Shown: one piece after another, positions 1,010-3,479 of the stretch
Numbering within the stretch: position 1 is the stretch's first letter
Layout: every line of letters starts with the position of its first letter
Source of the DNA: Escherichia coli
GTDB lineage: Bacteria; Pseudomonadota; Gammaproteobacteria; Enterobacterales; Enterobacteriaceae
Assembly (NCBI RefSeq): GCF_048403405.1
Contig: NZ_CP183129.1
Length of the DNA: 64,000 nucleotides
Direction: 5' to 3' (one strand)
The notes under the pieces: generated by a model
The model's input: the letters and a program-made list of their open reading frames with translations, nothing else
The model's database searches: none
What the model was told of the DNA's origin: nothing
Position numbers and translations under genes: made by a program

Positions 1010-1765
1010 CTAGCGCGTTCGCTGCGAATGCACCTGCTGCTTATCCAGCTTTTGCACCAGCGGCTGCACCACTTTATCCCCATGCTGACCAAAGTATTGA
1101 TACAGCGTATCGGACGCACTTTTGGTCAGCACCATAATCTCAATGCGTCGGTTGCCCGCGCTTTGCGGATTTTTCGCGTCCAGCAGCATCTGGTCCGCCA
1201 TCGCGCTCACCTGCATCACTTTATCTTCCGGCATTCCGGCCTCTTCCAGCACCCGACGAGCCGAAAGCGCGCGATCGCCCGAAAGGTTCCAGTTGTTGTA
1301 GATATTGTTTTTGTAGGCCATCGCATCGGTATGCCCGGTAATAATAATTTTGTTATCGAGCGAGTCGAACACTGGCGCGAGCTCCACCAGCAAAGTTTTA
1401 AAGAACGGCATAATCTGTGCGCTGCCGCGTTCAAACATATTGCGGTTCTGGTCATCTTTAATCAGCACGCGCAGTCCCTGGGGAACAATCTCCATCTCCA
1501 GATTCGCTTCCATATGTGCATCACGGGCAATGGTGTTGATACTGGTCGCCAGCTCGCCAAGCTCAGTAGCGGATTTCTTCTTCAGCAGCGCCGTTTTCTC
1601 ATTGACGTCACGCGCTTTTTTCTCCGTCTCTTCCGGCACCGCCACGGTGGCAGGTTTTGGCGGATGAGACAGGCTGATTTTATTTAACGGCGACAACCCG
1701 CCGCCATTGAAAATCGACTGCCCGTGCAGCGCGGCGATAATGCTTTCACGCTCGGATTTACTGAC
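1010..1765 (-). pseudogene. lafU: MotB-like lateral flagellar motor protein fragment (Flag-2 remnant), N-terminal TM region missing
   Basis: ORF 1010..1900 has an OmpA/MotB-like C-terminus (IIITGHTDAMAYKNN...NWNLSGDRALSARRVL...NRRIEIMVL); first ~45 codons of the ORF are antisense to lfhA and not MotB-like. Confidence 0.7.
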
Positions 1766-3479
1766 GCTGTTGACAATCAACTTTATCGTCGTCACCAAAG
1801 GGGCCGAGCGTATTTCCGAGGTTTCTGCCCGCTTTACCCTGGACGCGATGCCCGGCAAACAGATGGCGATTGACGCCGATCTTAACGCCGGGTTGATCAA
1901 CCAGGCGCAGGCGCAAACCCGGCGTAAAGATGTTGCCAGCGAGGCCGATTTCTACGGCGCAATGGACGGGGCATCGAAGTTTGTGCGCGGGGATGCCATC
2001 GCCGGGATGATGATTCTGGCGATCAACCTGATCGGCGGCGTCTGTATCGGGATCTTCAAATACAACCTGAGCGCCGATGCCGCCTTCCAGCAATATGTGC
2101 TGATGACCATCGGCGACGGACTGGTGGCGCAGATCCCGTCCCTGCTGCTTTCCACCGCGGCGGCGATTATCGTCACCCGCGTCAGCGACAACGGCGATAT
2201 TGCCCATGACGTGCGTAACCAGTTGCTGGCAAGCCCGTCGGTGCTCTACACCGCCACCGGGATCATGTTTGTGCTGGCGGTTGTGCCGGGGATGCCGCAT
2301 CTGCCGTTTTTGCTGTTCAGCGCCCTGCTTGGTTTTACCGGCTGGCGGATGAGCAAACGCCCGCAGGCGGCGGAGGCGGAAGAGAAAAGCCTCGAAACAC
2401 TGACCCGAACCATCACCGAAACCAGCGAGCAACAGGTCAGTTGGGAAACTATTCCGCTGATCGAGCCCATCAGCTTAAGCCTCGGCTACAAGCTGGTGGC
2501 GCTGGTGGACAAAGTACAGGGTAACCCGCTCACCCAGCGGATTCGCGGCGTGCGGCAGGTGATTTCTGACGGTAACGGCGTGCTGCTGCCGGAGATCCGC
2601 ATTCGGGAAAACTTCCGCCTCAAGCCCAGCCAGTACGCCATTTTCATCAATGGCATTAAGGCTGATGAAGCGGATATTCCGGCGGATAAACTGATGGCCC
2701 TGCCCTCCAGCGAAACCTACGGCGAGATTGACGGCGTGCTGGGGAACGACCCGGCGTACGGGATGCCGGTGACCTGGATCCAGCCCGCGCAGAAAGCGAA
2801 AGCGCTGAATATGGGGTATCAGGTGATCGACAGCGCCAGCGTGATTGCCACCCATGTGAACAAGATTGTCCGCAGCTATATTCCTGATTTGTTTAACTAT
2901 GATGACATCACGCAGTTGCATAACCGTTTGTCGTCGATGGCACCGCGCCTGGCGGAAGATTTGAGCGCGGCGCTCAATTACAGCCAATTGCTGAAAGTGT
3001 ACCGGGCGCTGCTGACCGAAGGCGTTTCCCTGCGCGATATTGTCACCATCGCCACCGTGCTGGTCGCCAGTAGCACAGTGACCAAAGATCATATCCTGCT
3101 GGCGGCCGATGTGCGCCTGGCATTGCGGCGCAGCATTACCCATCCGTTCGTTCGCAAGCAGGAGCTGACGGTGTATACGCTGAATAATGAGCTGGAAAAT
3201 CTGCTCACCAACGTGGTGAATCAGGCGCAACAGGGCGGGAAAGTGATGCTCGACAGCGTGCCGGTCGATCCGAATATGCTCAACCAGTTCCAGAGTACGA
3301 TGCCGCAGGTAAAAGAGCAGATGAAAGCGGCGGGGAAAGACCCGGTGCTGCTGGTGCCGCCGCAGTTGCGTCCTTTGCTGGCGCGTTATGCAAGGTTGTT
3401 TGCGCCGGGGCTGCATGTGCTGTCGTATAACGAAGTGCCGGACGAGCTGGAGTTGAAGATTATGGGGGAGTTGAGTTGA
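1758..3479 (+). pseudogene. lfhA: FlhA-like lateral flagellar export protein, N-terminally truncated (Flag-2 remnant)
   Basis: ORF 1707..3479; FlhA similarity starts only at INFIVVTKGAERISEVSARFTLDAMPGKQMAIDADLNAG; the first ~4 transmembrane helices of FlhA are absent. Confidence 0.75.

What the first reader, a model, noticed from the sequence alone, without database searches (positions are those of the whole stretch)
1010..3479. Flag-2 lateral flagellar locus deletion scar: truncated lfhA and lafU meet on opposite strands
An FlhA homologue lacking its first transmembrane helices and a MotB homologue lacking its membrane anchor are juxtaposed, with the apparent junction near 1760-1775. The six-frame ORFs make each look intact only by reading through the antisense of the other. 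This matches the known deletion of the ~40-gene Flag-2 cluster in many E. coli strains.
Basis: partly seen in the sequence, partly recalled or inferred. Interest (0 to 1): 0.35.

Follow-up and report, generated by a model that had tools for sequence, protein, structure and literature searches.

The report
Flag-2 lateral flagella deletion scar
This is the well-known leftover of a lost 35-kb second flagellar gene cluster in E. coli, two gene stumps joined head to head, but the same joint also sits on many unrelated sequence backgrounds and in four genera, so it may not be a single ancestral accident.

Summary
Window 1010-3479 is the canonical Flag-2 scar of E. coli: a lafU stump (minus strand, 1010-1778, LafU residues 53-307) abuts an lfhA stump (plus strand, 1776-3479, LfhA residues 131-697). 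The joint is a 3-bp overlap, ATC, at 1776-1778. Against an intact strain (ET474), 35,356 bp and 40 whole genes are missing. LfhA has lost TM1-3 and most of TM4. LafU has lost its single membrane helix and plug. The 590-aa and 296-aa six-frame ORFs look whole only because each reads into the antisense of the other stump. The same joint is contiguous in 4085 of 5426 complete E. coli genomes, including K-12, so the feature is already known (Ren et al. 2005, as cited by De Maayer 2020).

Follow-up gave something unexpected. The stumps in 14 diverse scar strains differ by up to 6.7% yet carry no stop or indel, with dN/dS about 0.03-0.05. Three intact strains each have scar counterparts with both arms 100% identical (2470/2470). 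The same joint also occurs in Citrobacter, Kluyvera and Atlantibacter, in native-diverged sequence. This fits repeated precise loss at one fixed site better than one ancient deletion. No mechanism was identified.

The parts
1..939 (-). dinB (DNA polymerase IV), left flank. The gene runs off the start of the window.
   Evidence: PGAP annotation of the 100%-identical TUM14771 record.
1010..1778 (-). lafU remnant: codons 53-307 plus the stop (255 aa) and one base of codon 52. It keeps the OmpA-like peptidoglycan-binding domain and has lost the N-terminus, the transmembrane helix and the plug.
   Evidence: Alignment to intact lafU of ET474. Pfam finds OmpA only, whereas the intact protein also has MotB_plug. 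NF005273 (LafU) profile positions 43-297 of 297.
1776..1778 (.). Deletion joint: the ATC shared by both parental sequences.
   Evidence: Three-way alignment of the window with the lafU and lfhA sides of ET474.
1767..1781 (.). Hybrid of the imperfect 15-bp direct repeat. It reads CTGTTGACAATCCAC in lafU and CTGATGATCATCAAC in lfhA, matching at 11 of 15 positions.
   Evidence: Such matches are not rare: 497 lafU x lfhA 15-mers reach 11 or more matches out of 15.
1763..1770 (.). GACGCTGT, the surviving half of an 8-bp-stem, 9-nt-loop hairpin of intact lafU. The joint lies in what was its loop.
   Evidence: it is one of 17 such hairpins in 37.8 kb, which together cover 0.68% of positions.
1776..3479 (+). 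lfhA remnant: codons 131-697 plus the stop (567 aa). It has lost TM1-3 and most of TM4, and keeps the FHIPEP loop, the later transmembrane segments and the cytoplasmic domain.
   Evidence: Annotated as 'incomplete; missing N-terminus'.
1707..1775 (+). Spurious 5' extension of the 590-aa ORF: 23 codons read from the antisense of lafU.
1779..1900 (-). Spurious 5' extension of the 296-aa ORF: 41 codons read from the antisense of lfhA. The PGAP 'LafU' CDS instead starts at the GTG at 1795, adding 6 foreign codons.
3577..4326 (-). yafL (C40 peptidase), right flank. In this strain rayT, hicAB and dinJ-yafQ are all absent between lfhA and dpaA.
   Evidence: compared.

Best explanation
Window 1010-3479 is the canonical Flag-2 deletion scar. 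A 35-kb segment carrying 40 lateral-flagellar genes has been removed. The break runs from lafU (between codons 52 and 53) to lfhA (between codons 130 and 131), and the ends are joined at a 3-bp ATC overlap.

What remains are two divergent gene stumps between dinB and yafL, and neither can do its original job. The LfhA stump lacks the first membrane helices of the export gate. The LafU stump lacks its membrane anchor, its proton-binding aspartate helix and its partner LafT. All other Flag-2 parts are gone. The long six-frame ORFs, and the PGAP 'LafU' CDS, are read-through artefacts. These points are shown.

On how the joint arose (inferred): the comparative data fit repeated, precise loss of Flag-2 at this one fixed pair of sites, on different haplotypes and in different genera. 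I put this at about 0.55. The alternative is a single ancient accident later spread by homologous recombination, at about 0.3. The molecular mechanism of such precision is not identified. Both breakpoints lie in small palindromes, which is only a hint.
For: Identity and anatomy:
- 100% match to TUM14771, with lafU and a partial FlhA annotated.
- Breakpoint mapped against ET474: 35,356 bp and 40 whole genes missing.
- Residues lost were worked out; domain loss is shown.
- Junction 100-mer contiguous in 4085 of 5426 complete E. coli genomes, including K-12 and O157:H7.
- Literature agrees.

Stumps are not maintained everywhere: the E. albertii type strain copy is frameshifted. An IS421 insertion (H84) and a further deletion (H30/H130) also occur.

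Repeated, clean transitions:
- 14 scar alleles differ by up to 115 of 1704 nt, yet none has a stop or indel, and dN/dS is 0.03-0.09, like intact genes.
- No SNP separates scar alleles from intact alleles.
- The K-12 lfhA arm is 100% identical to the same part of lfhA in the intact strain FAM21845. That includes a variant 9 bp from the joint, and FAM21845's diverged haplotype block there runs on about 4.7 kb into Flag-2.
- Pseudo-scars built from the arms of the intact strains TUM13773, ET474 and EC17CM7 each match real scars at 2470/2470.
- Scar strain Combat13F7 and intact ET474 are identical for 1.8 kb to the left and 4.2 kb to the right of the joint.
- The same joint occurs in Citrobacter sp. 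MGH106, Kluyvera ascorbata and three Atlantibacter species. Their arms are only 74-82% identical to E. coli, and the lfhA stump is open for 567 codons in all five.
- An intact A. subterraneus allele is 19 of 1704 nt from the A. subterranea scar arm.
Against: Against repeated precise loss:
- The microhomology is ordinary (3 bp perfect, 11 of 15 imperfect). Flag-2 of ET474 holds 626 perfect direct-repeat pairs of 10 bp or more lying at least 20 kb apart. Nothing known explains why this site would be reused.
- No recombinase was found among the non-flagellar Flag-2 genes.
- No genome carries the reciprocal circle or tandem junction.
- Published work on ST131 reads the same polymorphism as an insertion.

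Against 'non-functional': the stumps are open in all 14 E. coli scars sampled and in five other species. I attribute this to the recency of each loss, but that is not proven.

Ren et al. 2005 could not be read here, so I cannot say what it concluded about single versus multiple origin.
Confidence: 0.9

Rival explanations
1. A single ancestral deletion. One illegitimate-recombination event created the joint, and homologous recombination then moved the joint, or the intact cluster, between lineages. The flanks of scar alleles are continually overwritten from intact alleles, with tracts that stop at the edge of homology. That would erase linkage and keep the stumps looking undecayed.
For: - The joint is identical to the base everywhere, while its microhomology is unexceptional. 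A priori this points to one event.
- The arms are clearly mosaic, with left and right arms showing different affinities. FAM21845, for example, has an ET474-type left arm and a K-12-type right arm.
- Regain of Flag-2 within ST131 is reported in the literature.
Against: - A transfer by homologous recombination should carry donor flank sequence. Yet all three intact haplotypes tested have scars with both arms 100% identical, and the further flanks of one pair are about 99.9% identical over 14 kb.
- Both alleles of the variable site nearest the joint on its right side, 9 bp away, occur in both scar and intact strains, and no site anywhere in the arms tracks scar status.
- The same joint in four genera with arms 18-26% diverged would need either a polymorphism kept since before those genera split, or recombination between genera.
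Confidence: 0.3
2. The two stumps are kept by purifying selection because the truncated proteins do something. Candidates would be the LfhA cytoplasmic domain with its later transmembrane segments, or the LafU peptidoglycan-binding domain.
For: - No stop or indel in 14 diverse E. coli scar alleles, with dN/dS 0.03-0.05.
- Among variants seen only in scar alleles, the non-synonymous fraction is 0.17, against 0.76 expected under neutrality.
- The lfhA stump is open for 567 codons in Citrobacter, Kluyvera and three Atlantibacter species, with dN/dS 0.02-0.03 among the Atlantibacter species at dS 0.34-0.81.
- A weak sigma-70-like match lies just upstream of the lfhA stump, at 1714-1741.
Against: - Intact alleles identical or nearly identical to scar arms exist in E. 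coli and in A. subterraneus. The low dN/dS is therefore what recently truncated genes would show anyway.
- The E. albertii copy is decayed.
- There is no conserved start codon or N-terminal extension: TTG or GTG in E. coli, and a different ATG or GTG in Citrobacter.
- The LafU stump lacks any export or anchor signal, and all partner proteins are deleted.
Confidence: 0.05
3. The 590-aa and 296-aa ORFs are genuine, complete, overlapping divergent genes.
For: Both are uninterrupted ORFs. PGAP calls a 261-aa 'LafU' CDS without a pseudogene flag.
Against: - The N-terminal 23 and 41 residues are antisense read-through with no similarity to the orthologues.
- The profiles match only from position 103 of FHIPEP and position 43 of LafU onward.
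- PGAP itself flags the FlhA CDS as partial. The LafU call passes only because the stump still scores 474 bits against a 383-bit cut-off.
Confidence: 0.01

Closest known systems
E. coli K-12 lfhA (fhiA, b0229) and lafU (mbhA, b0230) pseudogene pair, the Flag-2 deletion scar of Ren et al. 2005
   Same: Same two stumps in the same orientation between dinB and yafL. The joint is base-identical, and the stumps have the same lengths: 769 nt of lafU and 1704 nt of lfhA.
   Different: The allele is 3.9-4.2% diverged from K-12. This strain lacks rayT beside lfhA and lacks dinJ-yafQ.
Intact Flag-2 lateral flagellar cluster (E. coli 042, W, ET474, ST131; Vibrio/Aeromonas laf systems)
   Same: The stumps are the orthologous terminal genes of this cluster, 96-98% identical at the protein level to the retained parts.
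   Different: The 40 genes between them, and the 5' ends of both terminal genes, are absent.
ETT2 eivJICAEGF deletion 'between two small direct repeats' in E. coli (as described in PMC5422975)
   Same: A large secretion-system gene block that is either present or cleanly missing across strains, with short direct repeats at the ends.
   Different: A different locus. Here the repeat is only 3 bp perfect, and the joint is also shared with other genera.
Excisable genomic islands and developmentally excised elements (for example B. subtilis skin, Anabaena nifD element). This is from my own knowledge and is an analogy only.
   Same: The empty-site sequence is identical across lineages and genera. 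Flanks are unchanged between the occupied and empty states.
   Different: No recombinase gene in the core cluster. No att-like repeat beyond 3 bp. No circular or reciprocal junction seen. Here the occupied state completes two genes rather than interrupting one.

Membership tests
Flag-2 deletion scar (lfhA'-lafU') | lfhA truncated at its 5' end | tested here: met
   Residues 1-130 of 697 are missing. FHIPEP profile matched from position 103.
Flag-2 deletion scar (lfhA'-lafU') | lafU truncated at its 5' end | tested here: met
   Residues 1-52 of 307 are missing and MotB_plug is lost.
Flag-2 deletion scar (lfhA'-lafU') | The two stumps abut divergently, between dinB and yafL, with the roughly 40 intervening genes absent | tested here: met
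   35,356 bp and 40 coding sequences missing relative to ET474.
Flag-2 deletion scar (lfhA'-lafU') | Joint identical to that of K-12 | tested here: met
   The junction 100-mer matches K-12 MG1655 at 99% without a gap and is contiguous in 4085 genomes.
Functional FlhA/SctV export-gate protein (FHIPEP) | Complete N-terminal transmembrane domain | tested here: not met
   The hydrophobic segments at about 19-60 and 66-85, and most of the one at 113-136, are deleted.
Functional FlhA/SctV export-gate protein (FHIPEP) | Reaches the TIGR01398 equivalog cut-off | tested here: not met
   590.4 bits against a cut-off of 772.1. Intact LfhA scores 772.4.
Functional FlhA/SctV export-gate protein (FHIPEP) | C-terminal cytoplasmic domain present | tested here: met
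   The profile is matched to position 656 of 657, with no stop codon in 567 codons.
Functional MotB/LafU stator subunit | N-terminal transmembrane helix with the conserved aspartate, plus the plug (PF13677) | tested here: not met
   PF13677 is found in intact LafU (residues 19-70) and is absent from the stump. The only hydrophobic segment, residues 35-53, is deleted.
Functional MotB/LafU stator subunit | OmpA-like peptidoglycan-binding domain | tested here: met
   PF00691, E = 9e-15.
Functional MotB/LafU stator subunit | Adjacent MotA/LafT partner gene | tested here: not met
   lafT lies in the deleted interval.
Site-specifically excisable genomic island | Identical empty-site joint in unrelated lineages and genera, with flanks unchanged | tested here: met
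Site-specifically excisable genomic island | A dedicated recombinase or integrase encoded in or beside the element | tested here: not met
   No recombinase domain in the eight non-flagellar Flag-2 proteins scanned. Serine recombinases occur only in a 5.5-kb element beside lafU in the two intact strains TUM13773 and CUVET21.
Site-specifically excisable genomic island | att-like direct repeats at both ends | tested here: inconclusive
   Only ATC is perfect, with 11 of 15 imperfect matches. Small palindromes lie at both sites.
Site-specifically excisable genomic island | Excised circular form or reciprocal junction | tested here: not met
   None of 5426 genomes carries the reciprocal junction. 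Transient circles cannot be tested with assemblies.

The most novel reading that the evidence does not exclude
The lafU'|'lfhA joint is not the relic of one ancestral accident. It is the 'empty site' of a 35-kb flagellar module that is lost, and possibly regained, by a precise recombination between two fixed points inside lafU and lfhA. The process would be site-specific in its outcome and would operate repeatedly in Escherichia, Citrobacter, Kluyvera and Atlantibacter. That would explain four things: the cluster is all-or-none, the stumps do not decay, scar and intact strains share identical flanks, and the joint is the same across genera.
Probability: 0.45. Interest if true: 0.65.

Novelty: already known. 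Interest (0 to 1): 0.3.

Why it matters
The feature itself is textbook K-12 genome archaeology. Its practical value is as an annotation warning. Every scar genome inspected here (about 20) carries a 261-aa 'LafU' CDS that is really a stump with six foreign codons, and the same call appears under the match in every scar genome listed by the searches, so the artefact is probably present in thousands.

The follow-up matters more. If the same 35-kb loss recurs precisely on many backgrounds and in several genera, then presence or absence of the second flagellar system is a switchable trait rather than an old fixed loss. That would change how Flag-2 'gains' and 'losses' are read in outbreak phylogenies such as ST131. 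It would also point to an undescribed precise-deletion mechanism in enterobacteria, one that can be tested with a single PCR.

Tried and rejected
- Ren et al. 2005 could not be read, by DOI or by PMC id. Its content is cited only through later papers.
- Hitchhiking footprint: I looked for scar-specific SNPs near the joint and found none.
- Invariant block: 77 bp around the joint (1710-1786) never varies in 21 alleles. A longer 112-bp invariant run exists elsewhere in lafU, so I do not count this as evidence for a DNA-level site.
- 'No intact Flag-2 in Atlantibacter' (De Maayer 2020, Table 1) would have implied selection on the stumps. A full-length A. subterraneus LfhA on a contig carrying the Flag-2 export and basal-body genes overturned that premise.
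- Microhomology as the cause of site reuse: rejected, because hundreds of equal or better repeats exist.
- Recombinase inside Flag-2: none found by Pfam.
- Reciprocal or circle junction: absent from 5426 genomes.
- IS1 origin of the scar: USMARC-51688 has an IS1-bounded deletion ending 1-4 bp from the same lfhA point. It is a single genome, and the canonical scar keeps one more lfhA base, so the scar cannot derive from it.
- Comparisons by eye with dif/Xer, hix, integron attC and tyrosine-recombinase core layouts gave no convincing match. This was my own inspection, not a tool result.
- H70 (strain A30) simply has an intact lafU and was uninformative.
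Full report
**1. What is there**

Window 900-3600 is 100% identical to E. coli TUM14771. NCBI's PGAP pipeline annotates, in window coordinates:
- dinB (minus strand, to 939);
- 'lafU' (minus strand, 1010-1795);
- a partial FlhA pseudogene 'missing N-terminus' (plus strand, 1761-3479);
- yafL (minus strand, 3577-4326);
- then dpaA and yafJ.

**2. Mapping the break**

ET474 carries an intact Flag-2 locus, with lafU at L003 8886-9809 (minus strand, 307 aa) and lfhA at 44618-46711 (plus strand, 697 aa). Forty coding sequences lie between them.

- The window matches the lafU side through position 1778 and the lfhA side from 1776. The shared bases are ATC.
- Around them lies an imperfect direct repeat, CTGTTGACAATCCAC in lafU and CTGATGATCATCAAC in lfhA (11 of 15 matches).
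- 35,356 bp are missing.
- LfhA keeps residues 131-697 and loses 1-130. LafU keeps residues 53-307 and loses 1-52.
- Hydropathy places the lost LfhA segment over the first hydrophobic helices and most of the one at 113-136. The lost LafU segment covers its only hydrophobic helix, WKVAFADFTLAMMALFMTLW.
- The lfhA stump matches FHIPEP from profile position 103 and scores 590 bits on TIGR01398, against a 772.1 cut-off. Intact LfhA scores 772.4.
- The lafU stump keeps OmpA but has lost MotB_plug.
- The first 23 residues of the 590-aa ORF and the first 41 residues of the 296-aa ORF are antisense read-through.

The observation and the interpretation are both confirmed. The joint is at 1776-1778 rather than 1760-1775.

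**3. How common, and is it known**

A 100-mer across the joint is contiguous in 4085 of 5426 complete E. coli genomes (75%). These include K-12 MG1655, O157:H7, O55:H7 and an avian pathogenic (APEC) O2:K1 strain. Most of the remaining genomes split the 100-mer into two distant places.

The literature describes exactly this:
- De Maayer et al. [quoted passage not shown] 2005 for direct repeats at its ends, and report 76 of 100 E. coli strains with the truncated pair.
- Archer et al. 2011 name fhiA and mbhA as the K-12 remnants.
- An ST131 paper reports fragments of about 1700 bp and 769 bp, which are exactly these arms.
- Leimbach et al. 2017 note that Flag-2 is 'present or entirely absent', with no intermediate forms.

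The feature is already known.

**4. The stumps do not look like old pseudogenes**

I collected 14 scar alleles across the identity range, 6 intact alleles and one IS1 variant.
- Scar arms differ by up to 35 of 769 nt (lafU) and 115 of 1704 nt (lfhA). None has a stop codon or an indel.
- dN/dS between scar alleles is 0.025-0.087, the same range as between intact alleles.
- Among variants seen only in scars, the non-synonymous fraction is 0.17, or 0.23 for singletons. The neutral expectation is 0.76.
- Scar and intact alleles are interleaved, and the two arms have different affinities, so the region is a mosaic.
- No SNP tracks scar status. Both alleles of the site 9 bp to the right of the joint occur in both classes.

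**5. Clean scar/intact pairs**

- The K-12 lfhA arm is 100% identical to the corresponding part of lfhA in the intact strain FAM21845. That haplotype continues about 4.7 kb into Flag-2.
- I built pseudo-scars by joining the two arms of three intact strains at the canonical joint. Each has perfect 2470/2470 matches to real scars in other genomes: TUM13773 (5 genomes), ET474 (4 genomes) and EC17CM7 (at least 8 genomes).
- Scar strain Combat13F7 and intact ET474 are identical for 1.8 kb to the left and 4.2 kb to the right of the joint. Over 14 kb of flank they differ at only 14 sites.
- Scar strain FDAARGOS_1267 and intact CUVET21 differ at 1 of 3197 nt on the left, 0 of 853 nt across the lafU arm and the spacer beyond it, and 3 of 2662 nt on the right. 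The intact strain alone also carries a 5.5-kb serine-recombinase element.

A transfer by homologous recombination from a different lineage should leave donor sequence beside the joint. None is seen.

**6. Other genera**

I scanned one genome per species (GTDB, 100,044 species) with a degenerate pattern that requires LafU I53-V-N-S to abut LfhA I131-N-F-I-V-V-T-K-G.
- Besides E. coli and E. albertii, it hit Citrobacter sp. MGH106, Kluyvera ascorbata ATCC 33433, Atlantibacter hermannii, A. subterranea and Atlantibacter sp. RC6.
- Their arms are 74-82% identical to the window, and alignments to the window run straight through the joint.
- The lfhA stump is open for exactly 567 codons in all five.
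- dN/dS among the three Atlantibacter species is 0.019-0.034 at dS 0.34-0.81.
- The E. albertii type strain copy, by contrast, is frameshifted.
- De Maayer's table lists no Flag-2 in Atlantibacter. The large protein database, however, holds a full-length A. subterraneus LfhA on a contig with the Flag-2 export and basal-body genes (lfiI through lfhB). Its lfhA arm is 19 of 1704 nt from the A. subterranea scar arm. Atlantibacter therefore has both states as well.

**7. Reading the pattern**

Three explanations were weighed.

(a) Selection on the stumps. The matching intact alleles, the decayed E. albertii copy and the lack of a conserved start codon make this unlikely. I put it at about 0.05.

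(b) One ancient deletion spread by homologous recombination. This fits the ordinary microhomology: ET474's Flag-2 contains 626 perfect direct-repeat pairs of 10 bp or more lying at least 20 kb apart, and 497 lafU x lfhA 15-mers reach 11 or more matches. But it needs recombination tracts that end exactly at the joint on both sides, time after time, and a polymorphism shared across genera. I put it at about 0.3.

(c) Repeated precise loss, or loss and gain, at one fixed pair of sites. This accounts for the clean pairs, the polyphyly, the undecayed stumps, the all-or-none pattern and the cross-genus joint in one step. It lacks a mechanism. I put it at about 0.55.

Hints only:
- The lafU breakpoint lies in the loop of an 8-bp-stem hairpin, one of 17 such hairpins in 37.8 kb.
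- The lfhA breakpoint lies at the 3' edge of a 10-bp perfect palindrome, one of 28. The thresholds were chosen after seeing the sites.
- An independent IS1-bounded deletion in USMARC-51688 ends 1-4 bp from the same lfhA point, but in only that one genome.

Negative results:
- No recombinase among the non-flagellar Flag-2 proteins.
- No reciprocal junction in any genome.

**8. Verdict**

The finding is real, correctly interpreted and already known, so on its own it is of low interest. The comparative follow-up raises a testable question about how Flag-2 is lost. I have not seen that question addressed in the papers available here, which is why the score is a little higher than the scar alone would deserve.

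Noticed in passing
window 1010-1795 (minus strand): PGAP annotates the lafU stump as an ordinary 261-aa 'LafU' CDS with a GTG start at 1795, which adds 6 codons from the antisense of lfhA. It passes because the stump still scores 474 bits against the 383-bit NF005273 cut-off. The same call appears in every scar genome inspected, so it is a systematic annotation artefact.
   Followed up: partly
window 3480-4626: This strain has nothing between lfhA and yafL except a 97-bp spacer, and it has no dinJ-yafQ between yafL and dpaA. K-12 and ET474 carry rayT there, several other strains (e.g. EC17CM7, N5D43, SW4848) carry hicAB, and some others carry small hypothetical ORFs. The right edge of the locus is itself a variable spot.
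   Followed up: partly
window 3500-3533: A GC-rich palindromic repeat (cccctcgcccctttggggagaggg...) is 91% identical to an intergenic copy inside Flag-2 of ET474 (L003 30528-30561). It was not identified further.
   Followed up: no
L019 (E. coli USMARC-51688), about locus 2964-3731: An independent IS1-bounded deletion removes Flag-2 from within lafS to lfhA and keeps lafT and lafU. Its lfhA end (window-equivalent 1780) is 1-4 bp from the canonical breakpoint. Only 1 of 5426 genomes has it.
   Followed up: yes
L022 3198-8744 and L007 12-3132: In the intact strains CUVET21-PYO5 and TUM13773, a 5.5-kb element lies between dinB and lafU. It encodes a 514-aa large serine recombinase and a 190-aa resolvase, and it clips the end of dinB. 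It is absent from the matching scar strain FDAARGOS_1267 and from ET474, FAM21845, EC17CM7 and N5D43.
   Followed up: partly
L026 and L027: Metagenome-assembled-genome contigs labelled Collinsella sp. and Clostridiales bacterium carry the E. coli scar at about 96% identity to the window. This is almost certainly E. coli contamination of those genome bins.
   Followed up: no
L024 (E. albertii NBRC 107761): It has the same joint, but the lfhA stump is frameshifted (first stop at codon 336, six alignment gaps) and the lafU frame is shortened. This is the only clearly decaying copy seen.
   Followed up: partly
window 2492-2499 and 2501-2508: Two tandem Chi sequences (GCTGGTGG) lie on the plus strand inside the lfhA stump, about 720 bp from the joint.
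   Followed up: no
window about 11337-43906: By the annotation of the identical TUM14771 record, the rest of the window holds an ISEc1 copy (about 11337-12473), then an Rhs/VgrG/Hcp and type VI secretion cluster (about 13071-42569), ending next to tRNA-Asp (about 43830-43906). This is ordinary E. coli island content.
   Followed up: no
L008 (FAM21845) 25339-26076 and 32779-34398: This 'intact' Flag-2 is itself damaged, with an internal stop in lfgF and an IS1 inside the lafZ-like regulator. ET474 has a stop in the glycosyltransferase gene, and N5D43 has a frameshift in lafT. Many 'present' loci are probably non-functional.
   Followed up: no
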